NCBI GenBank assembly: GCA_001917535.1
Contig: MNEF01000087.1
Coordinates: 1,401-65,400, forward strand
DNA from: Candidatus Rokubacteria bacterium 13_1_40CM_69_27
GTDB lineage: Bacteria; Methylomirabilota; Methylomirabilia; Rokubacteriales; CSP1-6
Direction: 5' to 3'
Length of the DNA stretch: 64,000 nt
Below, in pieces: positions 38,296 through 61,786 of this stretch. The notes beneath the pieces are model-generated. The model was not told the DNA's origin. It searched no databases and was given only the letters and a program-made list of their open reading frames with translations. How positions within the stretch are numbered: the stretch's first letter is position 1; every line of letters begins with the position of its first letter. A program made the translations under genes and the position numbers.

Positions 38296-38327
38296 TTCCA
38301 GAAAGACTGGCGCGTAGCTTCTGCGGA

Positions 38328-38891: not shown

Positions 38892-38893
38892 CG

Positions 38894-40018
38894 TCAGCGC
38901 TTCGCTGGCGCCGCGATTCCCAGTTCCTGGAGGCTCGATGCGAACGCCTCCACCACGTCCTTCATGTCCGCCGGGGTCAGCGTGCCCATGTTGGAGACGC
39001 GGAAGGCGTAGGTACGGATGTCGCCCTGCCCCGCGTAGATGATGTAGCCCCGCCGCTTCATGGCGTCGTGCAGCGGGTCGTAGGCGAGTCCCGGCAGGAG
39101 CCGGAACGTGGTGAGGATGTTCGAGCGCGCGGCCGGAGCGACCAGAATCTCGAAGCCCAGCCCGACCATGCCCTCGCGGAGCACGCGCGCGTTCTCCGCA
39201 TAGCGGACGATGCGGTTGGCCACGCCCTCGCGCTCGAGCTCCACCAGCGCCTGCTCCATGGCGTGCAGCACCTGGACGGCGGGGGTGAAGGGCGTGTTGT
39301 CCTGCTCCTGAGTCGCCCACTGGTTGTGGAGGTCGAGGTAGACGCTCCGCGGGGCGCGGCCGCGCAGCGCCTCCATGGCGCTCCGCCGCGCCAGCACGAA
39401 CGACACACCGGGGATGCCCTGCAGGCACTTGTTGGCGCTGGCCACCACGAAGTCGATGCCGTCCTGGGTGACGTCGAGGGGCTCGCCGAAGAGCGAGCTC
39501 ATCGCATCCACCACCAGCCGCCGTCCCTGCTCGGCCGCCACCCGCGCCACCTCCCCGACCGGGTTCAGGAGGCCCGTCGTCGTCTCGTGGTGCACCAGCG
39601 CGACGTGGCTGATCTCGTGATGGGCGCGCAGCGCGCGCTCCACGTCGCCGGGCACGACCGGAGTCAGGTAGTCATAGGTGATCGCTTCGGTGCGGATGGC
39701 GTGGGCCCGCGCGATGCGGAGCATGCGGTCGCCGTAGACACCGTTGTTGACGACCAGCAAGGCGCCCTCCGGCGGCACTGCCGAGCAGATCGCGGCCTCG
39801 ACGGCGGCCGTCCCCGACCCGGCGAAGAGCACCGCGGTCCAGTCCTGAGCCCCTCCGATCAGATGCGCCAGGCGCTCCCGGCAACTCCGCATCATGTGGA
39901 AGAACTCGGGCTCCCGGTGACAGAGGTCCGGCATCACCAGCGCCTGGCGCACGCTGGGCGACGTGTTGGCGGGGCCCGGATTCAGCAGGATCCACTCTCT
40001 ATCGGCCATCGACGACAC
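38894..40018 (-). CDS. class V pyridoxal-phosphate aminotransferase (AGXT / serine-pyruvate / PhnW family)
   Basis: ILLNPGPANTS, HHETTTGLLNP, VDAMSSLFGE, SANKCLQGIPGVSFV; HREPEF motif favours the alanine-glyoxylate/serine-pyruvate subgroup over PhnW. Confidence 0.85.
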   Translation of the reverse strand: MSSMADREWILLNPGPANTSPSVRQALVMPDLCHREPEFFHMMRSCRERLAHLIGGAQDWTAVLFAGSGTAAVEAAICSAVPPEGALLVVNNGVYGDRMLRIARAHAIRTEAITYDYLTPVVPGDVERALRAHHEISHVALVHHETTTGLLNPVGEVARVAAEQGRRLVVDAMSSLFGEPLDVTQDGIDFVVASANKCLQGIPGVSFVLARRSAMEALRGRAPRSVYLDLHNQWATQEQDNTPFTPAVQVLHAMEQALVELEREGVANRIVRYAENARVLREGMVGLGFEILVAPAARSNILTTFRLLPGLAYDPLHDAMKRRGYIIYAGQGDIRTYAFRVSNMGTLTPADMKDVVEAFASSLQELGIAAPAKR

Positions 40019-42704: not shown

Positions 42705-42923
42705 GCCGGGACCTCTAGCGGACCTTGGGCAGGACCTCCCGCGCGTAGAACCGAGGGCGGTAACGACCAGGATCGCGCCGACGAGGTTGCGGGTTATGGC
42801 GCACCCCTGGATGATGAGATCCGGACAGTACGGCTAGCAAGACGCCTGCCACCGGGGGGTGTGGAAACTTTTTCCCACCTACTTTGGTCTTAGAGCCGAA
42901 TACCCTTTCGCGGAGCACTGTTA

Positions 42924-43319
42924 TTGTCTATACTTGCCTGCCCAATGAGGACCGAGCTTCAGACCAGCGATCACAGGGTCAGCGGGCTCGTGGACGTGCT
43001 GGACCGCGTCCTCGACAAGGGGCTCGCCATCGCCGGCGACATCACGATCTCGCTGGCTGAAGTCGAGCTGCTCACCATCCGCATCCGCCTCATCATCTGC
43101 TCGATCGACAAGGCCCAGGAGATCGGCCTCGACTGGTGGAAGCACGATCGGCACCTGTCGGGCCGGCAGGACGCCGTCGAGACGCACGATCTTCAGAGGC
43201 AGCTGCGCGTGCTCGAGCGCAAGGTCGCCGCCCTCAGCACCGGGCGTGTCGCCGCGCCGGCCCGTCGCCCCGGGCGGAGAACCAAACCAGGGAACGAGGA
43301 GTCCTCGCAGGGAGGATGA
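42924..43319 (+). CDS. gvpJ: gas vesicle protein GvpJ/GvpM-like (GvpA family)
   Basis: [37 protein letters not shown] matches the GvpA/J/M hydrophobic core. Confidence 0.75.
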   Translation: MSILACPMRTELQTSDHRVSGLVDVLDRVLDKGLAIAGDITISLAEVELLTIRIRLIICSIDKAQEIGLDWWKHDRHLSGRQDAVETHDLQRQLRVLERKVAALSTGRVAAPARRPGRRTKPGNEESSQGG

Positions 43320-43322
43320 CCG

Positions 43323-43664
43323 ATGCCCGTTGAACGAACGTCCAGCAACACAAGCCTCATCGACGTTCTTGACCGCGTCCTCGACAAGGGCATCGTGATC
43401 GACGCCTGGGTTCGCGTGTCGCTCGTCGGCATCGACCTGATCACCGTCGAGGCACGCATCGTCGTCGCGTCGATCGAGACCTACCTGAAGTACTCGGAAG
43501 CGGTGGCCCAGAGCACGCCGGCTTTACGGTCCAACGCAGTCGAGACCCGCTCGCAGGAAGCTCTGGCGGCGGAGAATCGGTCGCTGCGGTCCAAGCTCGC
43601 AGCGGCGGCCGACGGCACGGGCGTGCCCGTGGTGAGAAGGCGGCGCCGCTCGGTCGGCGTCTAG
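43323..43664 (+). CDS. gvpA: gas vesicle structural protein GvpA
   Basis: [51 protein letters not shown] is near-identical to the canonical GvpA core. Confidence 0.9.
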
Positions 43665-43667
43665 GCC

Positions 43668-45827
43668 GTGGGCCGCGCCCTCCCGCTCCGCGCCCGGTCC
43701 CGAATATCCGGGAGCGGCCGGGCCGAAGCCCGGCTCGCGCTCGCCGAGTTCCTGCTCGGTTGCGACGACGTCGCGGAGTGCGCGCAGTGGGCGCTGGACT
43801 GGCTGGGCGCTCAGACCGACGCCCGGCAGGTCGTGTGCCTGCTGACCGATAAGGAGCGGACGCAGCTGGTCGCGATCGCCGGATACGGCCTGCCCGCTTC
43901 CCGCCTCCCCAAGCTCGCGATCGAGCTCGACCAGCGCGAACATCCGCTGGTGGCCGCCCTCGCCCGCGGCGAGCCGGTCGAGCTCACGCTGAACGGCTCC
44001 AGCGGACGCACCCCTGTGATGCGGCTCTTCGGCCGCGGCACGTTCCTGGCGATCCCGCTCATGGACGGCCGCAAGTCCGAGGACGCCCACGGTCTGCTGC
44101 TCGTCAACCCGAGGGCGCCCGACGTCGTTCGCGAAGGCGCCTGGCTCGCCGACAACCTGGGACCCAAGCTCGCGCGCCTCGGCGCCACCCAAGGGCTGGA
44201 GACGGCCCGGGCGGGCCTGGAGCGGGAACGGATCCTGCTCGAGAGCATCATCAACGCCGTCCACGACCCCGTGTTGTTGACCGATCACGAGGGGCGCATG
44301 ATCCTGGCCAACGCGCGCGCCGAGGCGCTCTTTGCCTCCACCGAGCGCGAGAGCGAAGGCCGGCGCCGGGCCATCGCGCTGAACAACATGCTCTTCTCGG
44401 CCGCCCTGGCCGGCCGCGCCATCGACCGGGCCGAGCCGACGCGCCGGGAGCTGCTGCTGGTGGATCCGATGGACGGCTCCGACCTGTTCTTCGAGCTGCT
44501 GAGCACGGTCGTCACCGATGCGTCGGAGGAGTCCCAGGTGGTCTCGGTCCTCAGGAACGTCAGCGATCTCCGCACCGCCATCGAGGCGCAGGAGGAGAAC
44601 TACCACAAGCTGCGCTTAGCCGAGGCTGAGGTCCGGGCCGAGCGCGACCGGCTCGAGCTGGTCATCGACGCCGTGGCCGACCCGATCCTCGTCACCGACC
44701 CCGCGGGAGCCATCGTCATGACGAACGCCCCGGCCGAGCAGCTCTTCACGGTACGGCCCGACACGCCCGGCGAGGTCGCCGTGAGGGTCCAATCGAACGA
44801 CGCGCACTTCTCGTCGTTCGTCTCGAACCTGCTCTTCGCCGGCGACACCCTGCGCCACTCGGGGTCCATCGAGCTCACCGATCCGGAGACCGGCGAGGGC
44901 CTCCCGGTGGAGGCGTTGGGGGGCAAGGTGCAGTCGGCCCACGGCGAGCTCGTCGGTGTGGTCACGATCCTGCACGACCAGCGGGAGGCGCTCGAGAAGC
45001 AGCAGCTCTACGAGCAGCTCAAGCGCGCCTCCCAGGAGCTGGAGGAGAAGGTCCGCCAGGCCACTGCCGAGCTGGTCCGACAGAACGAGCTGCTGCGGCG
45101 CCAGGCGATCCAGCTCGAGCACGCCTCGGCGCTCAAGTCCAGGTTCCTGGCCAACATGTCCCACGAGTTCCGCACGCCGCTCAACGCGATCCTGGGCTAC
45201 ACGAGCATGCTCCTGCAGGGCGTCCTCGGGGAGCTGACGTCCCAGCAGCGGCGGAGCCTCTCGCGAGTGGACTCCAGCGGGCGGCACCTGCTGGCCCTCA
45301 TCAGCGACATCCTCGACATCTCCCGCATCGAGGCGGGCAAGATGCCGGTCCATGTCAGCGATTTCCCGCTGCCCGAGCTGCTGGCCGAGGTGATGGCGGA
45401 GGTGGAGCCGATCGTCAGCCGCACCAGTCTCTGCGTCACCCAGGAGCTGGCCCCCAACCTGCCGATGATCGAAAGTGACCGCCCGAAGGTCAAACAGATC
45501 GTGCTGAACCTCCTGGCCAACGCGCTGAAGTTCACGCCGGAGGGCTGGGTCAAGGTCTCGGCGAGATTCGACGACGCCGGCGACCGGATCCTCATCGCCG
45601 TCGCCGACTCCGGCATCGGCATCGCCGACGATGACCAGGCGAAGATCTTCGAGGACTTCAGCCAGGCCGACAGCTCCTCCTCGCGCGCCTACAGCGGCGC
45701 CGGGCTGGGGCTCTCCATCTCGCGGCGGCTGGCCTCGATGCTCGGCGGTCAGATCACGCTCGAGAGCAAGGTCGGCCAGGGCTCCGCGTTCACCCTGATG
45801 CTTCCCAGGTCGCGCACGAGCCCATGA
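43668..45827 (+). CDS. GAF-PAS sensor histidine kinase
   Basis: N-terminal GAF-like region, PAS-like repeats, HisKA (NMSHEFRTPLNAILGY) and HATPase_c (GIGIADDDQAKIFEDF...GAGLGLSI). Confidence 0.85.
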   Translation: MGRALPLRARSRISGSGRAEARLALAEFLLGCDDVAECAQWALDWLGAQTDARQVVCLLTDKERTQLVAIAGYGLPASRLPKLAIELDQREHPLVAALARGEPVELTLNGSSGRTPVMRLFGRGTFLAIPLMDGRKSEDAHGLLLVNPRAPDVVREGAWLADNLGPKLARLGATQGLETARAGLERERILLESIINAVHDPVLLTDHEGRMILANARAEALFASTERESEGRRRAIALNNMLFSAALAGRAIDRAEPTRRELLLVDPMDGSDLFFELLSTVVTDASEESQVVSVLRNVSDLRTAIEAQEENYHKLRLAEAEVRAERDRLELVIDAVADPILVTDPAGAIVMTNAPAEQLFTVRPDTPGEVAVRVQSNDAHFSSFVSNLLFAGDTLRHSGSIELTDPETGEGLPVEALGGKVQSAHGELVGVVTILHDQREALEKQQLYEQLKRASQELEEKVRQATAELVRQNELLRRQAIQLEHASALKSRFLANMSHEFRTPLNAILGYTSMLLQGVLGELTSQQRRSLSRVDSSGRHLLALISDILDISRIEAGKMPVHVSDFPLPELLAEVMAEVEPIVSRTSLCVTQELAPNLPMIESDRPKVKQIVLNLLANALKFTPEGWVKVSARFDDAGDRILIAVADSGIGIADDDQAKIFEDFSQADSSSSRAYSGAGLGLSISRRLASMLGGQITLESKVGQGSAFTLMLPRSRTSP

Positions 45828-46228
45828 AGAAGGCGCCCCTGATTCTCCTGGTCGACGACTTCGAAGACAACCGGGAGATGTACGCCATGTTCCTGACGCA
45901 CTCCGGCTTCAAGGTCGCGGAAGCGGCCAATGGGCAGGAGGCGATCGAGCAGGCGTTCGAGCTGCTGCCGGACCTCATCGTGATGGACCTCTCGCTGCCG
46001 GGGCTCGACGGCTGGGAGGCCACGCGCCGCCTCAAGGGCGACGCGCGTACGCGTCACATTCCCGTGCTGGCGCTGACGAGCCACGCCCTTGAAGGCTTCT
46101 CGGAGGGGGCCAAGGAGGCCGGCTGTGACGGCTTCATCACCAAGCCCTGCCTGCCCGATGAGCTCATGGCGGAGATCCGCGGCATGCTCACCGTCGCCAA
46201 GAAATCCAAGTCGAAGAGCTCCACCTAG
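45824..46228 (+). CDS. response regulator receiver protein (CheY-like)
   Basis: ILLVDDFEDNREMY...DLIVMDLSLPGLDGWEA...ALTSHAL...GCDGFITKP; overlaps the HK stop. Confidence 0.85.
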   Translation: MKKAPLILLVDDFEDNREMYAMFLTHSGFKVAEAANGQEAIEQAFELLPDLIVMDLSLPGLDGWEATRRLKGDARTRHIPVLALTSHALEGFSEGAKEAGCDGFITKPCLPDELMAEIRGMLTVAKKSKSKSST

Positions 46229-46580
46229 CGCTTGAGGAGGTTATGCGGCTGGCCTGTTCGGAGAAAGACACGCGCGCCGATGAACGGCCCCGGCGCTGGG
46301 CTTCGGCAGCGGCCAAGCGAGGGCATGGCGGCGTCACCGCCTCGCATCGCGACTCACCTTCCGGGGTCCTTTCCGTCGGTGCTCGGACTGCGAGGCATTG
46401 ATTCCACACACCTTTTGAATGGTATGACCGTGTGGTCGGAATGGCATGACCATTCACGGTGGATATCTGTTGACAGTACGGGCGCGTGGCATGCTAGAGT
46501 GCCCGTCCTCGCGCGGCCTCGGCCACTGGAGTTGGACTAGAAGACGCAGGCGGAAACGAGAACGTGCTCGAGGAGGCCAT

Positions 46581-47480
46581 GTGAAAGGCAGGACGAAGCG
46601 GCAGGCCGGGCCCAAACCCGCGCGGGGACGGTCGGCCCCGGGCAAGACCGGCGACCTCGCGGCCAGCCGCGCCAAGCGGTCCAGCCGCCGGCCGCGGGCC
46701 GAGGCCAAGGGGGGGGCCGACAATCTCGGCAAGTACGTCTACTGCGTGGTCAGCGCCACCGAGCCGCTACGCTTCGGCGCCATCGGCATCGGGGCCAAGC
46801 CCGCCGAGGTCCAGACGGTCAACTACAAAGGCATCGCCGCGATCGTCTCCGACACCCCCCTCGAGGTGTACGACCCCACCCGCGAGAACGTCCTGGCCCA
46901 CGAGCGCGTGAACGAAACGGTCATGCGCACCCACACCGTCATCCCCATGTCGTTCGGCGCGGTGTTCAAGACGCGCGAGGACATCATCGAGCTGCTGCGG
47001 GGCGCCTACAACGCCTTTCACGACGTCCTCTCGAAGATGGAGGACAAGCTCGAGTTCGGGCTGAAGGTCCTCTGGGATCGCGACGTCATGATCCGCGAGA
47101 TCGAGCGGGAGGACGAGGACATCCGGCGGCTCAAGAACGAGATCGCGTCGCAGAAGGGCTCGACCTATTTCGCCCGCGTCCAGTACGGTCGCATGGCGGA
47201 CGCGGCGCTGCAGAACCTGGCCGACCGCTACGTCGCCGACATCTTCGCCCAGCTGCGCGACGTCTGCGTCGCCTCCCGGGCCAACAAGCCCATCGGCGAC
47301 AAGATGATCATGAACGCCGCCTTCCTGGTCGCCCGGAACCAGGAGGCCGCGTTCGACGCGCGCGTGAAGAAGATCGGCGCCCAGTACCACAAGCTCACGT
47401 TCAAGTACACCGGGCCCTGGCCGCCCTACAACTTCGTCAACATCCGGCTGAAGCTCGAGCGGGCCAAGGACGCCCAGTGA
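46581..47480 (+). CDS. gvpL: gas vesicle protein GvpL/GvpF family (paralog 1) with basic N-terminal extension
   Basis: GAGGAGG RBS plus GTG; GKYVYCVVSATEP...GPWPPYNFV motifs of GvpF/L. Confidence 0.8.
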   Translation: MKGRTKRQAGPKPARGRSAPGKTGDLAASRAKRSSRRPRAEAKGGADNLGKYVYCVVSATEPLRFGAIGIGAKPAEVQTVNYKGIAAIVSDTPLEVYDPTRENVLAHERVNETVMRTHTVIPMSFGAVFKTREDIIELLRGAYNAFHDVLSKMEDKLEFGLKVLWDRDVMIREIEREDEDIRRLKNEIASQKGSTYFARVQYGRMADAALQNLADRYVADIFAQLRDVCVASRANKPIGDKMIMNAAFLVARNQEAAFDARVKKIGAQYHKLTFKYTGPWPPYNFVNIRLKLERAKDAQ

Positions 47481-47761
47481 TCATCCTCGACTCCCTCCTG
47501 TTCGGCGGGCTCAAGTTCGTCCTGTCGAAGATCGCCCAGCTCGCCGATGCCGAGCTCAACGATGAGAGCGCGCTGCGCGAGGAGCTGCTGGCCGCCCAGA
47601 TGCGCCTCGAGCTGGGGGAGATGAGCGAGGAGGAGTTCGCGCAGTTCGAGCGCGAGATCCTGGCCCGGCTGCGCGAGATCCGCGCCCGTACGACGGGCGC
47701 CGGGCCCGGGGGGATGAAGGTCACGGGCGTGGAGGCCCGCGCCTGGGACGACGAGGAGTAG
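47477..47761 (+). CDS. gvpG: gas vesicle protein GvpG
   Basis: LFGGLKFVLSKIAQLADAELNDESALREELL...EEFAQFEREIL typical of GvpG; ATGA overlap with gvpL. Confidence 0.75.
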   Translation: MIILDSLLFGGLKFVLSKIAQLADAELNDESALREELLAAQMRLELGEMSEEEFAQFEREILARLREIRARTTGAGPGGMKVTGVEARAWDDEE

Positions 47762-47763
47762 CT

Positions 47764-49818
47764 CCGCACTACCGCTTCTTCGGTGGCAAGGGCGGCGTGG
47801 GCAAGACCACCTGCGCCGCCAGCGCCGCCGTCGCCGCCGCCGAGAGGGGCCACCGGGTGCTCCTGGTGTCGACCGACCCCGCGCATTCCCTGGGCGACGC
47901 CCTCCAGCGCCCGCTCTCCGCGCGCCCGCGCCGGATCCCCACCCGGCGGGGAGCGCTGGAGGCGGTGGAGCTCGACGCCGACCGCGCGCTCGACCGCTGG
48001 ATCGCCGCCCGCCGGCGCCTGCTCCGGACGATCCTCGAGCGGGGAACCTACCTCGACGAGGACGACATCGACCGCTTCCTGCGGCTGTCCTTCCCGGGCG
48101 TCGACGAGCTGATCGGCCTGGTGGAGCTGACGCGCCTGGCCCGCGCACGTCCCTGGGACGACGTGGTGGTGGACACGGCGCCCACCGGTCACACGCTGCG
48201 CCTGCTCGCGATGCCCGCCACGCTGGAGCGGATCGCCACCGTCCTCGACGACATGCAGGCCAAGCATCGCTTTCTCGCCCAGAGCCTCAGCGGCGTCCAC
48301 CGGCCGGACGCGACCGACGCCCTGATCGACGAGATCGCCACCGAGGGCCGGTCACTGCGGGCGCAGCTGAGCGACCCGGACCGCTGCACGTTTGTCTGGG
48401 TGCTCCTGCCCGAGCCGCTGGCGCTCGAGGAGGCCAAGGACGGGATCGGCGCGCTCGACCGGGCGGGCATCTCCGTGAGCGAGATCGTCGTCAACCGCGT
48501 GGTCCCAGCGCCCGACCAGCCCTGCGAGCTGTGCGACGGCCGGCGCCGGGCCGAGCAGGCGGCGATCGCGGCCGCGCGCGCGGCCTTTCCAGGGCGGCCA
48601 CTGACGCTACTTCCCGATCTCGCCGACGAGCCCCGCGGCGTCGCGGCGCTTCGTGGCGTCGGCCGCCATCTCGCCTCCTCGCCAGCCCGCGTCGAGACGC
48701 CTCGGGCGCGGGCTTCGCTCGCGCCATCGACTCCTATGGGAAGGTTCGGAGGGGGCCGTGAGGCCCGTTCCGACTATGGATCTCGGAAGGGGGGCGAAGC
48801 CCCCCTCCGAATCAAAACCGCCGCGGAAGCGGCATGGCTCGAGCGCATCGCGCCGCCGGGCGTGCGCCTCCTCCTCTTCGCCGGCAAGGGCGGCGTGGGC
48901 AAGACCACCTGCGCGGCGGCGGTGGCGCTCGCGCTGGCCGCGCGCGCGCCCCAGGCCGACATCTTGCTGCTCTCCACCGACCCCGCTCACTCTCTGGCCG
49001 ACGTGCTCGCGATCCCGGTCGGGGACGATCCGCATCCCGTCCCGGGCGCCCCGCGCCTCCGCGCGCGTGAGCTGGACGCCGACCGCGTGTTCGCCGCCAA
49101 GCGCGCCCGCTACTGCGAAGCGGTCGACGATCTGTTCGCGGCGCTGAGGGGCGGTTCGCGCTTCGACGTCGCCTTCGACCGCACCGTCGTCCAGGACCTC
49201 ATCGACCTGGCGCCGCCGGGCCTCGACGAGCTGTTCGGGATCCTCACGGTGATCGAGGCGCTGTTCCCCGAGCCCGGCGCCGGCCGGCGCTACGACACGG
49301 TCGTGCTCGATACCGCGCCCACGGGCCACGCGCTACGGCTCCTCGAGCTGCCGGATGCCGCGCTCGAATGGGTGCACGCGCTGCTGGAGATCCTCCTCAA
49401 ATACCGGAAGGTCATCGGCCTGGGCGAGCTGGGGATGGATCTCGTGACCGTCTCGCGCGACTTGAGGCGGCTGGGGGCGCTGCTCCGCGACCGGGTTGAA
49501 ACGGGACTGGTCGCCGTCACGCGCCCGGCGGAGCTGCCGCGTCTGGAGACCCTCCGTCTGCTCCGGCGGATCGGGCGGCTCCGGATTCCGCTCGCGGCCG
49601 TGCTGGTGAACGCCGTCACGCCGCCCGGCTGTGCCCGCTGCCGGACCATCAGTCGCCGCGAGGCGCGCCAGCTCACCGCGCTCCGACGGGAGTGCCGGTC
49701 GCCCGCCCGCGGTCGCTGCGGTATCATCGTGGCTCCGGCCGTGGCGCCGCCGGCGCGCGGCGCCGCGGCGCTCGCCCGCTGGCGCGCGCGCTGGGAGCTG
49801 GATGGTGAAACGGACTGA
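47764..49818 (+). CDS. tandem ArsA/GET3-type P-loop ATPase (two ArsA halves in one ORF)
   Basis: Two GKGGVGKTTCAA P-loops, two STDPAHSL motifs, DTAPTGHTLRLL signature (twice); the start is upstream of the ORF-track Met because the P-loop begins at about 47776; the linker contains a REP-like insertion. Confidence 0.75.
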   Translation, partial: PHYRFFGGKGGVGKTTCAASAAVAAAERGHRVLLVSTDPAHSLGDALQRPLSARPRRIPTRRGALEAVELDADRALDRWIAARRRLLRTILERGTYLDEDDIDRFLRLSFPGVDELIGLVELTRLARARPWDDVVVDTAPTGHTLRLLAMPATLERIATVLDDMQAKHRFLAQSLSGVHRPDATDALIDEIATEGRSLRAQLSDPDRCTFVWVLLPEPLALEEAKDGIGALDRAGISVSEIVVNRVVPAPDQPCELCDGRRRAEQAAIAAARAAFPGRPLTLLPDLADEPRGVAALRGVGRHLASSPARVETPRARASLAPSTPMGRFGGGREARSDYGSRKGGEAPLRIKTAAEAAWLERIAPPGVRLLLFAGKGGVGKTTCAAAVALALAARAPQADILLLSTDPAHSLADVLAIPVGDDPHPVPGAPRLRARELDADRVFAAKRARYCEAVDDLFAALRGGSRFDVAFDRTVVQDLIDLAPPGLDELFGILTVIEALFPEPGAGRRYDTVVLDTAPTGHALRLLELPDAALEWVHALLEILLKYRKVIGLGELGMDLVTVSRDLRRLGALLRDRVETGLVAVTRPAELPRLETLRLLRRIGRLRIPLAAVLVNAVTPPGCARCRTISRREARQLTALRRECRSPARGRCGIIVAPAVAPPARGAAALARWRARWELDGETD
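48745..48810. repeat. REP-like element (two hairpin modules) lying in-frame within the ArsA-like ATPase linker
   Basis: TTCGGAGGGGGCCGTGAGGCCCGTTCCGA ... TCGGAAGGGGGGCGAAGCCCCCCTCCGA translated as ...GRFGGGREARSDYGSRKGGEAPLRIK... between the two ArsA halves without a stop. Confidence 0.55.
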
Positions 49819-50596
49819 CACGACCGCCACCTACCTCTATTGCCTGGTGCACGGCAAGAAGTCTCCGTCTCTGGCCAGGCCGCCCCGGGGGCTTCCGGGC
49901 GCCGGCCCGGTGCGGCTGCTGGACGCGGGGGACGGCTTCTGGCTCGCCGTCGCCGACGCGCCCCTGGCGCGCTACGGCAGCGAGCCCATCGAGCGCGGCC
50001 TGCGCGACCTCAAGTGGGTGTCGGCGTGCGCGATGGCCCACGAGAGCGTCGTCGAGCACTTCGGCCGCGCGGGCACCGTCATCCCGATGAAGCTCTTCAC
50101 CCTGTTCTCGAGCGACGAGCGGGCCGCCACCCACGTGCGACGCGCGCGCAAGCGGCTCCTGCGCCTGATCACCCGCGTCATGGACCGCCAGGAGTGGGGC
50201 GTGCGGCTGAGCCTGGACGAGGCCCGCGGGCTCCGCGGTCTCGCCGCGCGCTCCCCGGGCGACGGCCGGCGCCTCGGCGCCGGCACGGGCTTCCTTGTCC
50301 GTAAGAAACAGGAACGCGACTCCGTCCGCCGGCTGGCCGAGCGGGCGCGCGCCGAAGCCGATCGCATCTTCGGCGCATTGGCCCGGCGCGCCGACGACGC
50401 GCGGCGCCAGACGCCGCCCCCGGGCGACGCCGGCATCCGCGTGCTCCTCGACGCCGCCTTCCTCGTGCGCGCCCGGCGCTCCCCTCAGTTCCGGGCGACC
50501 GCCCACGGCCTTGCCCGCCGCCTGGCCGGCGAGGGCTACGCCCTCACGCTGAGTGGTCCCTGGCCGCCCTACACCTTCGTGGCGGGGCCCGCGTGA
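49802..50596 (+). CDS. gvpF: gas vesicle protein GvpF/GvpL family (paralog 2)
   Basis: TYLYCLVHG...VIPMKLFTLF...GPWPPYTFV; ATG overlaps the ArsA-like stop. Confidence 0.75.
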   Translation: MVKRTDTTATYLYCLVHGKKSPSLARPPRGLPGAGPVRLLDAGDGFWLAVADAPLARYGSEPIERGLRDLKWVSACAMAHESVVEHFGRAGTVIPMKLFTLFSSDERAATHVRRARKRLLRLITRVMDRQEWGVRLSLDEARGLRGLAARSPGDGRRLGAGTGFLVRKKQERDSVRRLAERARAEADRIFGALARRADDARRQTPPPGDAGIRVLLDAAFLVRARRSPQFRATAHGLARRLAGEGYALTLSGPWPPYTFVAGPA

Positions 50597-50820
50597 AGCC
50601 CAAGGCGCGGCGCCGGCTCCGGAACGTCCTCGACGAGGCGGACGCGTCGCTGCTCGATCTCGTGGACCACGTGCTCAACAAGGGCGTCGTCATCGAGGGC
50701 GAGGTGCTGCTCGGCCTCGCCAACGTCGATCTCGTCTATCTCCGGTTGGCCGCCGTCCTCTGCGCCGCCGACCGCCTGGAGCGGACGAACGAAAGCCGGC
50801 GGCGGCGGGCGCGGTCGTGA
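50593..50820 (+). CDS. gvpS: small gas vesicle protein of the GvpA/J/S family
   Basis: LLDLVDHVLNKGVVIEGEVLLGLANVDLVYLRLAAVL matches the GvpA-family core; GTG start overlapping the upstream stop. Confidence 0.65.
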   Translation: MKPKARRRLRNVLDEADASLLDLVDHVLNKGVVIEGEVLLGLANVDLVYLRLAAVLCAADRLERTNESRRRRARS

Positions 50821-51503
50821 GCCGGCTCTACCTCTACGCGCTGCTGGGCGGGCCGCCCTCGGGGCCGCTGGGAGCCGGGCTCGCGGGCGAGCCCCTTCGC
50901 CTCGTACGTTGCGGCGATCTCCTGGCTGTCGCGGGCGACGTGCCGAAGGCGCCGTCCATCGACGCCGCGTCGCTGCGCGCCCACGACGCCACCGTGCGCC
51001 GGCTGGCCGAGATGGTCGAGGCCGTCCTCCCCATCCGCTTCTGCACGCTCGTCGACGATGAATCCGCGCTGGCCGGACTGCTGGAGCCGCAGCGCGCCGG
51101 GCTCGGTGAAGCCCTGGCCCTGGTCGCCGGGCGCGAGCAAATGACGCTCCGGCTCTACGGCGAGGGGCTGCACGACGACGCTCCCCTCCCCGATGCGGAG
51201 CCCTCCCTGCCCGGTCCGGGCGCGCGCTACCTCGCGGCCCGGCGGCGGGAGCGGCGGCGCGCGCACGGCAGCCGGGAGATGGCCGCGCTGCGGCGGGGGC
51301 TCGGGGCGCTGATCGTCGACGAGCGCGTCGAGCGCCACGACATGCCGCCGCTCCTGGCGAGCCTCTACCACCTGATCGAGCGCGGCGCCAGCGCCCGCTA
51401 TCTGAGCGCGCTGGAGACCATCGCCGGCGAGCTCGGCGCTGTCCGCGCCCGCGCCACCGGGCCCTGGCCGCCCTACGCCTTCGCGCCCGGAGCCATTCCG
51501 TGA
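50817..51503 (+). CDS. gas vesicle protein GvpF/GvpL family (paralog 3, short)
   Basis: LYLYALLG...GPWPPYAFAPG C-terminal signature; GTG start overlapping the gvpS stop. Confidence 0.65.
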   Translation: MSRLYLYALLGGPPSGPLGAGLAGEPLRLVRCGDLLAVAGDVPKAPSIDAASLRAHDATVRRLAEMVEAVLPIRFCTLVDDESALAGLLEPQRAGLGEALALVAGREQMTLRLYGEGLHDDAPLPDAEPSLPGPGARYLAARRRERRRAHGSREMAALRRGLGALIVDERVERHDMPPLLASLYHLIERGASARYLSALETIAGELGAVRARATGPWPPYAFAPGAIP

Positions 51504-51859
51504 AGCCGCGGCGGACGAGGCGCGCCGGCGTGGCGCTTCGCGTGCGGGAGCTGGAGGCGCTGCGGACCGAGCTGGAGCGGCGCGTGGCGGCGGAGACGCC
51601 ACGCTGGAACGCCGACCCCGAGGACGTCCAGCGCTCGGTCGCCAAGCTCGTCCTCACCCTCGTCGACTTCCTGCGCAAGCTCTTCGAGAAGCAGGCCATC
51701 CGGCGGATGGAAGCCGGCACGCTGACGCCCAAGGAGACGGAGGCGCTCGGCCTGGCGCTGATGCGGCTGGAGGAGACGATCCGCGACCTGGCCCGCCGCT
51801 TCGACCTGGCGCCGGAGGACCTGAAGCTCGACCTGGGCCCGCTCGGCCGGCTGTCCTGA
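51500..51859 (+). CDS. gvpK: gas vesicle protein GvpK
   Basis: VAKLVLTLVDFLRKLFEKQAIRRMEAGTLTPKETEALGLALMRLEE...LDLGPLG matches GvpK. Confidence 0.75.
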   Translation: MKPRRTRRAGVALRVRELEALRTELERRVAAETPRWNADPEDVQRSVAKLVLTLVDFLRKLFEKQAIRRMEAGTLTPKETEALGLALMRLEETIRDLARRFDLAPEDLKLDLGPLGRLS

Positions 51860-52024: not shown

Positions 52025-52090
52025 GGAACCTCTGGGGCTTCCAGATAGTAGTACACTTGCGCAGGCATCCACCCTCGGAAGGAGACAAGC

Positions 52091-52645
52091 ATGCGAACGA
52101 CACGCGCGGTGGTTGGGGGTGCCCTGATCGGAGCCGTCCTGGCCCTGGTCCTGGCGGGCCCGGCACGGGCGCTCGAGGTGGGGCAGAAGGCGCCCGACTT
52201 CACGCTGCCCGCCCCCGGGGGGAAGCAGGTGAAGCTGGCCGATCTGCTCGGCAAGGGACCTGTCGTCATCTACACGCTGATTCAGGCCTTCACCCGCACC
52301 TGAACGGAGGAAATCAAGGGCTTCGAGGCGGCCCTGCCGCAGTTCGAGGCCCTCAACGCCCAGGTCGTGGGCGTCAGCGCGGATCACGTAGCCACGCTCG
52401 AGGCGTTCGTGAAGCAGAACGACATCAAGCAGCTCATGCTTTCCGATTTCCGTCGCCAGATGCTGCCCGCCTGGGACGCCCTGGTCACGGACGAGAAGAG
52501 CCCGATTTACCGCTACGCCAAGCGCGCCTACTTCATCCTCGACCGGAACGGGATGGTGAAGTACGTCAAGGTGATGAACAACCCGCTGGATCTCCTGAAG
52601 CCCGACGAGGTCATCAAGGCCGTCAAGGAGTCGGGCGCATCATGA
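52091..52645 (+). CDS. periplasmic peroxiredoxin (AhpC/TSA family) with in-frame TGA at the peroxidatic Cys position: candidate selenoprotein
   Basis: Signal peptide; single reading frame 52091-52645 interrupted only by TGA at 52301-52303; ...VVIYTLIQAFTRT-[TGA]-TEEIKGFEAALPQFEALNAQVVGVSAD aligns with the Prx motif ...FYPLDFTFVCPTEI... with TGA exactly at the Cys. Confidence 0.7.
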
Positions 52646-53175
52646 AGCGCGCGCTCGTCCTCGCGGTCGCCCTCGCGCTCGGCGCGGGGGCGGCCGCGGG
52701 GGGCGTTCCCGACTTCGCGAGCTTCGGGCTCCAGGCGTACGCCCCGCCCAAGCCGGCGCCGCCCTTCACGCTCGCCGACCTGGAGGGCAAGCCGCGGTCG
52801 CTGGCCGACCTCAAGGGCCAGGTCGTCCTCCTCTTCTTCTGGGCGACCTGGTGACCGGACTGCCGGGAGGAGTTGCCTTCCGTCAACAAGCTCTACGACG
52901 AGTTCAAAGGCAAGGGGCTCGAGGTCCTGCTCATCACCTTCCGTGAGGCTCCTGAGCGGGTGAGGCGGACCGTCCGGGAGCGCGGCTACACGGCGCCCGT
53001 CCTGGTCGATGAGAGCGGCGAGGTGACGGGGGTCAAGTACGGCGTGTTCGGTCCTCCGACGGTGTACATCGTCGACCGCGAGGGTCGTCTGCTCGCGCGC
53101 GGCGTGGGGCCGCGCGACTGGTCCACGCCGGCGGCCCGCGCGCTGCTCGAGGACCTCGTCCAGCCACGCCGGTAG
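52642..53175 (+). CDS. periplasmic TlpA/ResA-like thioredoxin-fold thiol:disulfide oxidoreductase with in-frame TGA replacing the first Cys of CxxC: candidate selenoprotein
   Basis: ATGA overlap with the prx stop; signal peptide; LKGQVVLLFFWATW-[TGA]-PDCREELPSVNKLYDEFKGKGLEVL aligns with ResA [23 protein letters not shown]...; the frame continues without another stop to 53175. Confidence 0.7.
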
Positions 53176-53176
53176 C

Positions 53177-53541
53177 CTAGAGCGCCAGCGCGTAGCCGTC
53201 GCGGCGGGGGTCGGCGCCGCCGTGCAGGGCGCCCGACTCCGGGTCGCGGATGATCCCTGGCCCCCGCCGACGATCCACGACCAGTCGTCGATCACGTTGA
53301 CCTGGTGGCCGCGGCGCCCCAGCTCGGCGCGCGCCTCGGGCGCGATCCGCGCCTCCACGTCGACCAGCCGGTCGCGGTAGACGCGCACCCGCGGCGCCTC
53401 GATCGCCTCCTGGATGTTCAGGCCGAACTCGAGGACGTTCAGGATCATCTGCGGCGTCGTCTGCAGTATTCCGTACGAGCCCGGCGTGCCGATCGACATG
53501 AAGAACTCGCCGTCGCGGAAGATCTGCGTGGGCGACATCAT
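53177..53541 (-). pseudogene. gamma-glutamyltranspeptidase C-terminal fragment with frameshift
   Basis: MMSPTQIFRDGEFFMSIGTPGSYGILQTTPQMILNVLEFGLNIQEAIEAPR (GGT small-subunit signature), then the alternate frame ends GIIRDPESGALHGGADPRRDGYALAL (GGT C-terminus); the N-terminal about 400 aa are absent. Confidence 0.5.
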
Positions 53542-53673
53542 GGTCCCGGCCTTCCGGCCGGGGGCCAGCCGATTCGGGCTCTCGGGATGGCATCGACGCC
53601 AGCGGGTGCGCGGAGGTCACCACCCCGCGCCGTCCCATCACGACCGGCCGGTAGGCGTCTCGATGCGGTGGTC

Positions 53674-55488: not shown

Positions 55489-55704
55489 CTACAGGCGCGG
55501 CCGGATGTCGCCGGCAAAGGCCGCCAGCACCCGCTCGACCTCCTCCAGGCTCTTCGGCAGCAGCGCGGGCGGCAGCCCGTAGACGATGTGGTCGCCCACC
55601 CACACGGAGTCGTAGCCCAGCGCTTCCGCGCGGCGGGCCAGCGCGAGCGTGCCCTCGCCGGAGGCGAGCGGGCCGAAGTGCGGGAGCTGGACGCCGAACT
55701 TCAC
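55489..55704 (-). pseudogene. N-terminal fragment of an LLM-class (luciferase-like) flavin/F420-dependent oxidoreductase
   Basis: MKFGVQLPHFGPLASGEGTLALARRAEALGYDSVWVGDHIVY is a canonical LLM N-terminus but the ORF stops after 71 aa. Confidence 0.45.
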
Positions 55705-55711
55705 GCGACGG

Positions 55712-56593
55712 TCAGGCGGGCGGAAGGAACAGCGCCCACGTCGCGCGCAGCGTCCACATCGAGAGCAGGAAGCCGCCGGCCAGCGCCAGGCTCACCCCGC
55801 TGACGACGCTCACGCGGTGCTGGAGGGCCAGGGCGTCGGTGCCGGCTCGCCCGGCGCGCCCCGCCGCGAGCGTGCCCGCCACCGCCAGCGGCACCATGAG
55901 CCCGAGGCCGTACGCCATCAGCGTGACGGCGCCGAGCCAGGCGCTCTGCTGCGCCGCCACCCAGCCGATGACGAGCGCGTAGGCCGACAGCGGGCTGAAG
56001 ATCGCCATCGTCGCGCCGAACCCGAGCGCGATCGCCAGCGCCCGCCGCGTCAGACTGCCGGTGGGAGCTCCTTCCGCCGGGGCCGTGGTCAGGCGGGGGA
56101 GCAGCGGGCGCGCCAGCCCCAGCTCGCCGAGCGCGATCGCCAGCGCCAGCAGGCCCAGCCCCGAGAGGGTAACGGAGGCGATCGCTTCGCGCGCCCAGGG
56201 CGTCGTCACCTTGGCGGCCATGGCGGAGCCCGCCCAGGCCATCGCCGCGCCGAACACGCCCAGCACCGCCAGCAGGGCGCCCGTGAACAGACCGAGCACC
56301 GCCATCCACCGCCGTCTCGTCTTCGCCTCCTGAACCAGGGGCGCGATCGTGAAGATCATCGGCGTCCATCAGGGGACGCAGATGCGCGGCACCCCCATGA
56401 CGAAGGCGAGCAGCACGGCGGTCGACGCGCCCACCAGCGGCGCGCCCGGATCGGTGAAGAGCGCGATGAACCCTTTGTACATGCCGCTGAACATGGGCCA
56501 GTTCCAGGCGTAGCCCAGTAGCCCGCCCGTCAGCGTGGCGACCACGAACAACGTCAGACGAGAACGCATGGGAGCCTCCCTGAAGGGCAGCAT
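55712..56593 (-). CDS. ccdA: CcdA/DsbD-family transmembrane thiol-disulfide electron transporter with in-frame TGA in TM1 (C-V-P-[TGA]): candidate selenoprotein
   Basis: Two ORF-track pieces (55712-56359 and 56369-56593) are in the same frame, separated only by TGA at 56369-56371; ...AVLLAFVMGVPRICVP-[TGA]-WTPMIFTIAPLV... resembles the CcdA TM1 motif LSPCVLPL. Confidence 0.6.
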
Positions 56594-61743: not shown

Positions 61744-61786
61744 GCACTGGGCGCGGCAGGGAGCCACGAAGGAATAGGAGGGGTCT

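What the first reader, a model, noticed from the sequence alone, without database searches (positions are those of the whole stretch)
52091..52645. Peroxiredoxin with TGA exactly at the peroxidatic cysteine
The reading frame is continuous from 52091 to 52645 except for TGA at 52301-52303. The protein reads ...AFTRT-U-TEEIKGF..., matching the Prx active-site motif ...DFTFVCPTEI.... Selenocysteine peroxiredoxins (PrxU type) are known but rare. This one carries a signal peptide, so it is periplasmic.
Basis: partly seen in the sequence, partly recalled or inferred. Interest (0 to 1): 0.75.

Follow-up and report, generated by a model that had tools for sequence, protein, structure and literature searches.

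The report
Exported selenocysteine peroxiredoxin with selenoprotein partner
The in-frame TGA is a real selenocysteine codon at the catalytic site of a secreted peroxiredoxin-type enzyme from a Rokubacteria/Methylomirabilota soil bacterium, and it sits in an operon with a second, overlooked selenoprotein (a TlpA-like reductase), a pair that gene callers cut in two at the TGA in every database entry and contig annotation examined.

Summary
52091-52645 (+) is one frame with a single TGA (52301-52303). That TGA aligns with the peroxidatic Cys of BCP/PrxQ peroxiredoxins (PDB 2ywn, E 1e-23).

All 80 related loci, almost all from Rokubacteria/Methylomirabilota MAGs, keep TGA there. Four relatives have Cys instead. 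A hairpin 14 nt downstream shows compensatory changes. The same gene ends at TGA in 81/82 homologs, so the genetic code is standard. A Sec-type signal peptide is conserved in 63 distinct N-termini.

It overlaps by ATGA and is a TlpA/ResA-like protein with TGA at W-U-xxC. It is conserved in 77/80 loci and has a textbook bacterial SECIS.

The peroxiredoxin has no Cys at all (0/82). It must therefore be recycled by an external partner, most likely this neighbour. This would be a selenium version of the Caulobacter TlpA->PprX envelope peroxide pathway.

A third TGA gene lies 3 kb away (56569-55712, minus strand). It is CcdA/DsbD_TM-like with a C-V-P-U motif, and its TM4 Cys is replaced by Ser. I found it in no selenoprotein catalogue I could search. 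Its role as electron donor is uncertain, because its Cys-form relatives sit in metal-resistance operons.

Sec-peroxiredoxins are a known kind; this is a new variant.

The parts
52077..52084 (+). Shine-Dalgarno-like GGAAGGAG, 6 nt before the ORF1 ATG
   Evidence: read directly from the sequence
52091..52645 (+). ORF1: 184-codon exported 1-Sec peroxiredoxin-fold protein (BCP/PrxQ-like); Thr68, Sec71, Glu74, Arg145; no Cys
52091..52171 (+). Signal peptide of ORF1 (27 residues, MRTTR / hydrophobic core / ARA|LE)
   Evidence: 63 distinct N-termini, median 27 aa, -1 Ala in 59/63, -3 Ala/Val in 58/63, almost no acidic residues. Cytoplasmic BCPs (2ywn, 2cx3) start at the residue that follows this extension
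52301..52303 (+). Sec codon (TGA) of ORF1 at the peroxidatic position
52317..52353 (+). ORF1 SECIS-like hairpin (lower stem of about 11 bp, AG bulge, 5-bp upper stem, 3-nt loop; -25.9 kcal/mol)
   Evidence: 81% of cells paired against 32-52% in slid controls; 9 pairs with compensatory changes; 0/500 shuffles reach the covariation score
52642..53175 (+). ORF2: 177-codon TlpA/ResA-like thioredoxin-fold protein with W-U-P-D-C; ATGA overlap with the ORF1 stop; N-terminal signal or anchor
52852..52854 (+). Sec codon (TGA) of ORF2 at the N-terminal (nucleophilic) Cys position of CxxC
   Evidence: 3kcm FWATW-C-PPC
52864..52882 (+). ORF2 SECIS hairpin CGGGAGG-AGUUG-CCUUCCG (7 bp, 5-nt loop with G at position 2, loop 16 nt after UGA, -9.5 kcal/mol)
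   Evidence: 98% paired against 54-68% slid; 3 compensatory pairs; 0/500 shuffles reach any measure; Leu is always TTG/TTA and Pro nearly always CCT in a 70% GC genome
55712..56569 (-). ORF3: 285-codon DsbD_TM/CcdA-like membrane protein, C64-V-P-U67; the TM4 catalytic Cys is replaced by Ser (FSPLSAY). A candidate member of the system, not a proven one
56369..56371 (-). Sec codon (TGA) of ORF3 at the TM1 catalytic Cys position of CcdA
56324..56343 (-). ORF3 SECIS-like hairpin CGCCCCUG-GUU-CAGG.A.GGCG (loop GUU 33 nt after UGA, -10.7 kcal/mol)
   Evidence: stem invariant in 15 distinct sequences (only the third loop base varies, U/C); synonymous diversity 0.085 in codons +1..+17 against 0.35 in the flanks

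Best explanation
ORF1 is a genuine selenoprotein gene.

Decoding. During translation, a hairpin that starts 14 nt after UGA-71 recruits SelB and Sec-tRNA(Sec), so the UGA is read as selenocysteine (inferred from conservation and covariation).

Export. The 27-residue Sec-type signal peptide sends the unfolded chain across the inner membrane. The mature 157-residue protein is a BCP/PrxQ-fold enzyme in the cell envelope.

Active site. Sec71 sits where the peroxidatic Cys sits, flanked by the Prx residues Thr68, Glu74 and Arg145.

Catalysis. Sec71 most likely attacks H2O2 or organic hydroperoxides and becomes a selenenic acid (inferred from family chemistry). The protein has no Cys, so it cannot resolve this intermediate itself.

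Recycling. The translationally coupled neighbour ORF2 is an exported TlpA/ResA-like protein whose nucleophilic Cys is also Sec (U-P-D-C). It is the probable reductant. It would attack the Se-OH and then close its own Se-S bond.

Result. This gives a selenium-based version of the experimentally shown Caulobacter TlpA -> PprX envelope peroxide-reduction pathway.

Electron source. ORF2 must in turn be reduced by a membrane DsbD-family protein. The nearby C-V-P-U CcdA-like ORF3 is a candidate only.

The confidence given applies to the claim that ORF1 is an exported Sec-Prx-fold selenoprotein co-expressed with a Sec-TlpA partner. For peroxidase chemistry specifically I put about 0.6, and for ORF2 as its direct reductant about 0.6.
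For: Shown here.

- ORF1 domain and active site: full-length AhpC-TSA match. U aligns with Cp of 2ywn, 2cx3 and 3hjp, and Arg aligns in AKRAyF.
- ORF1 conservation: TGA in 80/80 loci. Cys stands at that column in 4 relatives, and code-4 gene calls show W both there and at their own TGA stop.
- ORF1 is translated past the TGA: Glu+3 is invariant, while its codon varies between GAA and GAG outside the hairpin.
- ORF1 hairpin: covariation at 18-52 (CG 40 / GC 19) and 29-39 (CG 43 / GC 12); 0/500 shuffles reach the score.
- Standard code: ORF1 ends at TGA in 81/82 homologs.
- No Cys: 0 Cys in 82/82 mature ORF1 homologs, and exactly one Cys in 81/82 ORF2 homologs.
- Export: signal-peptide statistics.
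- ORF2: adjacent in 77/80 loci with TGA at W-U-xxC. Its U aligns with the first Cys of WCxxC in 3kcm and ResA. Its hairpin meets all four published bSECIS criteria.

From the literature.

- ScsB -> TlpA -> PprX was shown experimentally (PMC3322552).
- Methylomirabilota are reported to be rich in selenoproteins: 63 predicted genes in one MAG, and Sec-type hydrogenases (PMC13188914 and PMC13582414).
Against: - No selA, selB, selD or tRNA-Sec gene lies in the window or in the 1.7 Mb of fetched loci. The decoding machinery is therefore inferred from phylum-level literature only.
- The ORF1 apical loop (CCU) lacks the G expected in the first two loop positions of the bSECIS model.
- The universal Pro of PxxxTxxC is Ile or Val in 82/82 homologs, and Thr-3 is missing in 7/82. 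The Cys-form relatives have C, S, A or N at -3. Classical peroxidase chemistry is therefore not guaranteed.
- No curated NCBIfam peroxiredoxin or selenoprotein model reaches its cut-off.
- There is no expression, proteomic or biochemical evidence.
Confidence: 0.85

Rival explanations
1. The Prx-fold protein is not a peroxidase. It is a selenol/thiol-disulfide oxidoreductase that acts with ORF2 on protein or small-molecule substrates in the envelope, for example sulfenylated proteins, copper-site maturation as for TlpA, or selenium or other chalcogen compounds.
For: The canonical Pro is absent in 82/82 homologs and Thr-3 is absent in 7/82. Cys-form relatives show FCAIC (a CxxC), SKDC, AALC and NKTC. 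In Caulobacter, the Prx-like PrxL had no detectable peroxidase activity (PMC3322552). NCBIfam BCP scores 57 bits against a cut-off of 140.
Against: Thr68, Glu74 and Arg145 are conserved in most homologs. The best PDB matches over the whole domain are all genuine BCP peroxiredoxins. A lone selenol in a Prx pocket is intrinsically reactive with peroxides (established chemistry).
Confidence: 0.25
2. The three TGA genes form one dedicated all-selenium relay: cytoplasmic thioredoxin -> ORF3 (C64/U67 in TM1) -> ORF2 (U71/C74) -> ORF1 (U71) -> peroxide.
For: ORF3 matches DsbD_TM (31.1 bits, cut-off 27.1). The family profile hits Thermus CcdA 5vkv (E 5e-5) with U on the TM1 Cys. Twelve full-length Cys-form relatives have P-C-xx-P at the U column. 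TGA and C-V-P-U are invariant in 27/27 evaluable homologs. ORF1 and ORF2 lie convergent within 3-9 kb in 15 loci that reach far enough.
Against: 75 of 80 ORF1-ORF2 loci have no ORF3 within 10 kb, and distant genomes show the pair alone. The linkage is confined to one clade at 65-100% identity and may simply be inherited gene order; unrelated genes (5'-nucleotidase, LLM, GGT) lie in between. The three Cys-form relatives examined all sit next to HMA metallochaperone genes, two of them also with CsoR or MerR regulators. The TM4 catalytic Cys required by the CcdA mechanism is Ser.
Confidence: 0.3
3. ORF3 is a soft-metal (Cu(I)/Hg(II)-type) membrane transporter or handler with a C-x-x-U binding site, unrelated to ORF1 and ORF2.
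For: Relatives P0229, P0239 and P0222 lie in CsoR-HMA-X, MerR-HMA-X and X-HMA arrangements. Eight of 17 family members also hit DsbD_2. MerT-like C/SxxU proteins and other metal-handling selenoproteins are already catalogued (PMC13188914).
Against: No HMA, MerR or CsoR gene lies near ORF3 in the window, L081 or L107. Only three contexts were sampled. DsbD-family proteins can be linked to copper stress while still acting as reductant conduits, as in the Scs system (PMC3322552).
Confidence: 0.35
4. The TGA is a true stop: a pseudogene, a sequencing error, a split gene, or a lineage in which TGA codes for Trp or Gly.
For: Every automatic gene call splits the gene into pieces of about 70 and 109 aa. 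No Sec machinery is seen in the window.
Against: TGA is conserved in 80/80 loci with protein-level selection on both sides. There is no start codon until 22 codons after the TGA, yet those codons are conserved as protein. The aligned residue in relatives is Cys, not Trp or Gly. TGA terminates ORF1 itself in 81/82 homologs and terminates many other window genes. The RNA hairpin covaries. The same pattern appears at two further catalytic Cys sites nearby.
Confidence: 0.02

Closest known systems
PrxU, the selenocysteine peroxiredoxin of Eubacterium acidaminophilum ('Peroxiredoxin (Prx), PF00578, TxxU' in the 2026 selenoproteome review, PMC13188914)
   Same: AhpC/TSA fold. Sec replaces the peroxidatic Cys within a T-x-x-U motif. 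The SECIS lies inside the coding region just after the UGA.
   Different: Not an orthologue: NF040737 scores 37 bits against a cut-off of 270. ORF1 is BCP/PrxQ-like, exported via a signal peptide and free of Cys, and it has Ile where the family has Pro. It is fixed in an operon with a Sec-TlpA partner and comes from aerobic-soil Rokubacteria rather than an anaerobic Firmicute.
Archaeal BCP/PrxQ peroxiredoxins with solved structures (S. tokodaii 2ywn, A. pernix 2cx3/2cx4, S. solfataricus Bcp4 3hjp)
   Same: Best sequence matches over 152 of 157 mature residues (E 1e-23 to 2e-19). The same FT-x-x-[C/U]-T-x-E and AKRA-x-F motifs.
   Different: They are cytoplasmic. They use Cys, keep the Pro, and have a resolving Cys at +5, where ORF1 has Lys.
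ScsB -> TlpA -> PprX envelope peroxide-reduction pathway of Caulobacter crescentus (Cho et al. 2012, PMC3322552)
   Same: An exported PrxQ-type peroxiredoxin reduced by an exported TlpA-like thioredoxin-fold protein, which is fed by a DsbD-family membrane protein. This is the functional template for ORF1 and ORF2, and possibly ORF3.
   Different: All of its redox residues are Cys. PprX has two distant Cys, whereas ORF1 has one Sec and no Cys. The donor is ScsB, which has periplasmic domains, not a minimal CcdA-like protein. The genes are not arranged as an overlapping pair.
'Prx-like thiol:disulfide oxidoreductase' (PF00578, UxxC), 'thiol-disulfide isomerase-like' (cd02966, UxxC) and 'Redoxin family' (PF08534, UxxC) selenoprotein families (PMC13188914, Table 1)
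   Same: ORF2 has the same fold class and the same UxxC motif, with Sec at the nucleophilic position.
   Different: ORF2 does not reach the cut-off of any curated NCBIfam selenoprotein model: WAxxUGC_long 60 bits against 300, TUGYCR 20 against 100, SelL-related 29 against 120. Its obligate pairing with a 1-Sec Prx is not described in the texts I could read.
CcdA (Thermus thermophilus 5vkv) and TsoB, the rhodanese/DsbD fusion selenoprotein (NF045694, UxxxxU)
   Same: ORF3 shares the DsbD_TM fold signature. Its Sec sits on the TM1 P-C-x-x-P Cys.
   Different: The TM4 Cys is lost (Ser) and a new Cys at -3 gives C-x-x-U. There is no rhodanese domain and no hit to the TsoB model. Only 38 representatives match at E<=1e-3 among 1.84 billion.

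Membership tests
Peroxiredoxin (AhpC/TSA, PF00578; BCP/PrxQ subfamily) | Domain match above the curated threshold over the whole domain | tested here: met
   100.8 bits against a cut-off of 26, residues 30-159 on profile 1-124/124. PDB BCPs at E 1e-23.
Peroxiredoxin (AhpC/TSA, PF00578; BCP/PrxQ subfamily) | Redox-active residue at the peroxidatic (Cp) position | tested here: met
   The TGA codon aligns with Cp of 2ywn, 2cx3 and 3hjp. Cys stands at that column in P0003, P0007, P0013 and P0015.
Peroxiredoxin (AhpC/TSA, PF00578; BCP/PrxQ subfamily) | Thr/Ser at Cp-3 and conserved Arg (catalytic triad) | tested here: met
   Thr68 in the window; T or S in 75/82 homologs. Arg145 is nearly invariant and aligns with AKRAvF of 2ywn.
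Peroxiredoxin (AhpC/TSA, PF00578; BCP/PrxQ subfamily) | Pro at Cp-7 (PxxxTxxC) | tested here: not met
   Ile in 80 and Val in 2 of 82 homologs. Ile aligns with Pro of 2ywn.
Peroxiredoxin (AhpC/TSA, PF00578; BCP/PrxQ subfamily) | Thiol- or selenol-dependent peroxidase activity | not testable with these tools
   Needs purified protein and a reductant (ORF2 or thioredoxin).
PrxU equivalog (NCBIfam NF040737) / Prx-SUH (NF045827) | Score at or above the curated equivalog cut-off | tested here: not met
   PrxU 37.4 bits against 270; Prx-SUH 40 bits against 298.
Bacterial selenoprotein gene (standard computational criteria) | In-frame TGA conserved in homologs, with protein conservation on both sides | tested here: met
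   80/80 loci for ORF1; 77/80 for ORF2; 27/27 evaluable loci for ORF3.
Bacterial selenoprotein gene (standard computational criteria) | Cys/Sec pair: Cys-containing homologs align Cys with the TGA | tested here: met
   ORF1; ORF2; ORF3.
Bacterial selenoprotein gene (standard computational criteria) | bSECIS: 3-9 nt loop, 4-16 bp upper stem, G in the first two loop positions, 16-37 nt from UGA, MFE <= -7.5 (PMC13188914) | tested here: inconclusive
   ORF2 (loop AGUUG, 16 nt, -9.5) and ORF3 (loop GUU, 33 nt, -10.7) meet all four criteria. [quoted passage not shown] ORF1 nevertheless has the strongest covariation.
Bacterial selenoprotein gene (standard computational criteria) | Sec machinery (selA, selB, selC, selD) in the same genome | not testable with these tools
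The phylum is reported to use Sec.
TlpA/ResA-type thiol:disulfide oxidoreductase (ORF2) | Thioredoxin fold with a W-C-x-x-C active site, exported or anchored | tested here: met
   Pfam AhpC-TSA, Redoxin and Thioredoxin_8. 3kcm at E 6e-31 with FWATW-[C/U]-P-x-C aligned. N-terminal hydrophobic segment. NCBIfam ResA (95 bits against 170) and TlpA (76 against 230) are below their cut-offs.
CcdA/DsbD transmembrane electron transporter (ORF3) | DsbD_TM domain match | tested here: met
   31.1 bits against a cut-off of 27.1 with U written as C; 24.4 bits with X. Family profile against 5vkv, E 5e-5.
CcdA/DsbD transmembrane electron transporter (ORF3) | One catalytic Cys in TM1 (P-C-x-x-P) and one in TM4 (x-C-x-x-P) | tested here: not met
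   The TM1 position is Sec. The TM4 position is Ser in 26/26 sequences that reach that region. The only Cys in the protein is at -3 from Sec.
ScsB/DsbD -> TlpA -> periplasmic Prx pathway | An exported Prx, an exported TlpA-like reductant and a DsbD-family membrane donor acting in series | tested here: inconclusive
   The first two components are present and translationally coupled. The donor is only a candidate. Electron transfer itself is not testable here.

The most novel reading that the evidence does not exclude
The locus encodes a complete selenium-for-sulfur rebuild of the envelope reductive pathway. It would consist of a CcdA-type membrane protein that has moved its redox pair into one helix (C-V-P-U, with the TM4 Cys lost), a TlpA-type U-x-x-C carrier, and a Cys-free 1-Sec peroxiredoxin. 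Every electron transfer from membrane to peroxide would then pass through a Se-S or Se-Se bond. On this reading ORF3 would also be a selenoprotein family that is not yet catalogued.
Probability: 0.25. Interest if true: 0.8.

Novelty: new variant of a known kind. Interest (0 to 1): 0.55.

Why it matters
- Annotation. The ORF1-ORF2 pair occurs in at least 80 loci of species-representative Rokubacteria/Methylomirabilota genomes, a major but uncultured soil and groundwater phylum. In every database entry and contig annotation I examined it is split into fragments labelled 'redoxin domain-containing protein' or 'peroxiredoxin'. Correct annotation changes the predicted envelope antioxidant capacity of these organisms.

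- Mechanism. A peroxiredoxin with one Sec and no Cys, recycled by a Sec-containing thioredoxin-fold partner, would have to pass through a Se-Se or Se-S intermolecular intermediate. This gives a natural system for asking why selenium is chosen in an oxidising compartment, for example resistance to irreversible over-oxidation.

- ORF3. If it is confirmed, ORF3 adds a membrane-embedded selenoprotein family and a natural experiment on how the two-Cys CcdA mechanism can be rebuilt.

Tried and rejected
- RNAalifold on the ORF1 alignment returned no consensus structure. The structure was tested explicitly instead.
- My first dot-bracket string was one column out of register, giving 36% paired with the slide -2 control at 76%. 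It was corrected.
- Folding ORF2's 60 nt as a single sequence was no better than shuffles. The signal appeared only in the comparative data.
- Rfam gave nothing relevant at the gathering threshold or at E<=10, and no SECIS family matched.
- ARAGORN found no tRNA-Sec in the window or the loci.
- Pfam scans of about 50 window ORFs found no SelA, SelB or SelD.
- The sigma-70 promoter and terminator scan around the operon was empty or uninformative.
I used the exact post-TGA fragment instead.
- The contig of the Cys-form ORF1 relative P0013 ends before the neighbouring gene, so I could not test whether Cys forms pair with Cys-TlpA.
- Haft & Tolstoy 2025 and Deng et al. 2026 are not held in the library. 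BSepDB has no supplement held as text. 'Not catalogued' for ORF3 therefore rests on the 2026 review's table, the NCBIfam models and full-text searches.
- Two other TGA hits in the sensitive sweep were rejected. Position 4400 (+) is an antisense frame of an SBP gene, and 51883 (-) is a true gene end.
- Structure prediction was not run.
Full report
**Observation**

The finding's coordinates are exact. ATG 52091 is preceded by GGAAGGAG at 52077-52084. It opens a frame that runs to the TGA stop at 52643-52645, with a single internal TGA at 52301-52303 (codon 71)...VVIYTLIQAFTRT-U-TEEIKGFEAALPQFE....

With U written as Cys, the protein matches Pfam AhpC-TSA over the whole profile (100.8 bits, cut-off 26) and also matches Redoxin. 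Against the PDB the best hits are archaeal BCP/PrxQ peroxiredoxins: 2ywn at 1.3e-23, 2cx3 at 1e-21 and 3hjp at 2e-19. They cover 152 of the 157 mature residues.

The TGA falls on their peroxidatic Cys (AFTRT-U-TEEI against AFTQV-C-TKEM). The Prx Arg aligns as well (AKRAYF against AKRAVF). Their resolving Cys at +5 corresponds to Lys here.

**Is it selenocysteine?**

A protein search returned hundreds of close relatives that are only about 109 aa long and cover just the part after the TGA. Most are from Methylomirabilota/Rokubacteria MAGs and are named 'redoxin domain-containing protein' or 'peroxiredoxin'.

The few full-length calls show W at the U column and W again at their own terminal TGA. 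They were therefore translated with a TGA=Trp table. Four true relatives carry Cys at that column: P0003, P0007, P0013 and P0015.

A scan of species-representative genomes gave 80 loci, and the codon is TGA in 80/80. ORF1 itself terminates at TGA in 81/82 distinct homologs, and other genes in the window also end at TGA. The lineage therefore uses the standard code.

The codons just after the TGA are under protein-level selection. Glu+3 is invariant while its codon varies between GAA and GAG, outside the hairpin. No start codon occurs for 22 codons.

**The RNA element after the ORF1 TGA**

Downstream of the TGA, a long hairpin (window 52317-52353, -25.9 kcal/mol) is supported by 74 distinct sequences:

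- 81% of cells are paired, against 32-52% when the partner column is slid.
- Nine pairs carry changes on both sides, for example 18-52 (CG 40 / GC 19) and 29-39 (CG 43 / GC 12).
- No shuffle out of 500 reaches the covariation score.

Measured against the published bSECIS constraints (PMC13188914), it meets spacing (29 nt), stem length and energy. Its 3-nt loop (CCU), however, lacks the G expected in the first two positions. I record that as an unresolved deviation.

No selA, selB, selD or tRNA-Sec gene lies in the window or the fetched loci. That this phylum decodes Sec rests on the literature: a Methylomirabilota MAG with 63 predicted selenoprotein genes, and Sec-type group 4 hydrogenases.

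**Signal peptide**

The 27 residues before LEVGQKAPDF are extra relative to cytoplasmic BCPs. Across 63 distinct N-termini:

- The median length is 27.
- 58/63 have Lys or Arg in the first eight residues.
- Acidic residues are almost absent.
- The 11-residue hydropathy maximum has a median of 2.7.
- Position -1 is Ala in 59/63, and -3 is Ala or Val in 58/63.
- The sequence itself is not conserved.

This is a classical Sec/SPase I signal. There is no twin-arginine motif. Export to the envelope is inferred, not shown.

The next gene, ORF2 (52642-53175), overlaps the ORF1 stop by ATGA. It has its own in-frame TGA at 52852-52854: FFWATW-U-PDCREE.

It is a TlpA/ResA-like thioredoxin-fold protein. 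Its U aligns with the first, nucleophilic Cys of WCxxC in 3kcm (E 6e-31) and in ResA.

The gene follows ORF1, with TGA at that site, in 77/80 loci. The two Sec codons lie 539-581 nt apart.

Its hairpin (52864-52882, CGGGAGG-AGUUG-CCUUCCG) meets all four bSECIS constraints:

- 98% of cells are paired, against 54-68% in the slid controls.
- Three pairs are compensatory.
- 0/500 shuffles reach any of the five measures.
- Synonymous sites are visibly frozen. Leu is always TTG or TTA, and Pro is nearly always CCT, in a 70% GC genome.
- Synonymous diversity is 0.23 in the 17 codons after the TGA, against 0.40 in the flanks.

**Mechanism**

ORF1 homologs contain no Cys at all (0/82). ORF2 homologs contain exactly one, the C of UxxC (81/82). 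A selenenic acid formed on ORF1 therefore cannot be resolved within the protein.

The translationally coupled Sec-TlpA neighbour is the obvious reductant. This mirrors the experimentally established Caulobacter pathway, in which TlpA, fed by the DsbD-family protein ScsB, keeps the PrxQ-type envelope peroxiredoxin PprX reduced (PMC3322552).

- Shown: gene structure, conservation, RNA structure and active-site alignment.
- Inferred: Sec insertion, export, peroxidase chemistry and ORF2 -> ORF1 electron transfer.

Some features caution against assuming textbook Prx chemistry. The universal Pro of PxxxTxxC is Ile or Val in 82/82 homologs. Thr-3 is missing in 7/82. The Cys-form relatives have C, S, A or N at -3. 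Relaxed activation residues would be compatible with the intrinsically reactive selenolate, but that is an inference.

**A third TGA gene: ORF3**

On the minus strand, 56569-55712 encodes a 285-residue membrane protein with one TGA (56371-56369): GVPRIC-VP-U-WTPMIF. It matches DsbD_TM (31.1 bits, cut-off 27.1).

About 100 close relatives are all fragments of roughly 210 aa that start just after the TGA. In DNA, 27/27 evaluable homologs have TGA in an invariant R-[IV]-C-V-P-U-W-T-P context.

The family is small: 38 representatives at E<=1e-3 among 1.84 billion. Twelve distant full-length relatives have Cys at the U column within P-C-x-x-P, plus a second Cys in G-C-P-x-P-T-Y.

The family profile hits Thermus CcdA (5vkv, E 5e-5), and both catalytic Cys columns align. 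In the Sec clade the second (TM4) Cys is Ser in every sequence that reaches that region. The only Cys in the protein lies three residues before Sec.

Its hairpin (loop GUU, 33 nt after the UGA, -10.7 kcal/mol) meets the bSECIS constraints, and its stem is invariant in 15 distinct sequences (only the third loop base varies, U/C). Synonymous diversity there is 0.085, against 0.35 in the flanks.

**Whether ORF3 feeds ORF2 is open**

In favour:

- In its clade, ORF3 lies convergent to ORF1-ORF2 in every locus that reaches far enough (15 loci).

Against:

- 75/80 loci with the pair lack ORF3 within 10 kb.
- Distant genomes show the pair alone.
- Unrelated genes lie between ORF3 and the pair.
- The three Cys-form relatives I could place all sit beside HMA metallochaperone genes, two of them also with CsoR or MerR regulators. 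This points to metal handling.

**Comparison with known families, and novelty**

The 2026 review of prokaryotic selenoproteomes lists Prx (PF00578, TxxU; verified as PrxU) and several TlpA/Redoxin-type UxxC families. ORF1 and ORF2 therefore belong to known kinds.

They are nevertheless not members of any curated NCBIfam selenoprotein model. PrxU, Prx-SUH, WAxxUGC, TUGYCR and SelL-related all score far below their cut-offs.

I found no description of any of the following:

- an exported, Cys-free 1-Sec BCP;
- its fixed pairing with a Sec-TlpA;
- a CcdA-type selenoprotein.

The review table has only the rhodanese/DsbD fusion TsoB, whose model does not hit ORF3. Full-text searches were negative.

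Two relevant papers could not be read: Haft & Tolstoy 2025 and Deng et al. 2026. The deep-Sep survey of groundwater MAGs may well have flagged these genes already.

**Verdict**

The finding is a genuine and strongly supported selenoprotein. It is a new variant of a known kind, with a more interesting neighbourhood than was reported. I score interest at 0.55.

Noticed in passing
window 52642-53175 (+), TGA at 52852-52854: The adjacent gene, which overlaps ORF1 by ATGA, is a TlpA/ResA-like selenoprotein (W-U-P-D-C) with a textbook bSECIS hairpin at 52864-52882. It is conserved with TGA in 77/80 related loci.
   Followed up: yes
window 56569-55712 (-), TGA at 56371-56369: A CcdA/DsbD_TM-like membrane protein has Sec at the TM1 catalytic Cys position (C-V-P-U) and Ser at the TM4 catalytic Cys position. 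It was not found in the selenoprotein catalogues I could search. Its Cys-form relatives lie in HMA/MerR/CsoR operons.
   Followed up: yes
window 53180-53616 (-) and 55492-55791 (-): These are remnants of a gamma-glutamyltranspeptidase (only Pfam profile positions 382-494 of 512, with a frame break near the end) and of an LLM/luciferase-like oxidoreductase (about 25 matched residues). The closest relative, L107, has intact genes of 540 aa and 314 aa at the same places, so this genome has lost or decayed them.
   Followed up: partly
window 42894-51859 (+): A gas-vesicle gene cluster: three GvpA-like genes (42894-43316, 43320-43661, 50593-50817), three GvpL/F genes, a double ArsA-like ATPase (47566-49815) and GvpK (51500-51856). 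A PAS histidine kinase and response regulator (43665-46225) are embedded in it. The cluster lies directly upstream of the selenoprotein operon.
   Followed up: no
window about 37300-38900: A lower-GC island (61-65% against 70% for the window) without the usual GC3 coding signal. It holds a SAM-methyltransferase-like ORF (37321-38295, +) and a small minus-strand ORF containing ...YLSCHGRPGEL.... It may be horizontally acquired.
   Followed up: no
L059 about 13127 (-): A second, diverged TlpA-like gene with an in-frame TGA (FWHST-U-PYC, 39% identity to ORF2) lies 2.4 kb from the ORF1-ORF2 pair. This suggests further Sec-TlpA paralogues in these genomes.
   Followed up: no
L002, L007 and L074 (one MAG, CAVXVV01); L009 and L023 (DASYUM01): Some single MAGs carry two or three separate copies of the ORF1-ORF2 pair. 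L007 and L052 show an apparent frameshift in ORF2.
   Followed up: no
L081 14046-18937: In a related genome, an NAD-dependent formate-dehydrogenase-like molybdopterin gene with a NuoF-like partner lies next to the selenoprotein pair. It is called full length, so it is probably a Cys type.
   Followed up: no
window 61778-63370 (+): A di-haem cytochrome c peroxidase-like (DHOR) gene lies 5 kb beyond ORF3. It would be another envelope peroxide-related function in the neighbourhood.
   Followed up: no
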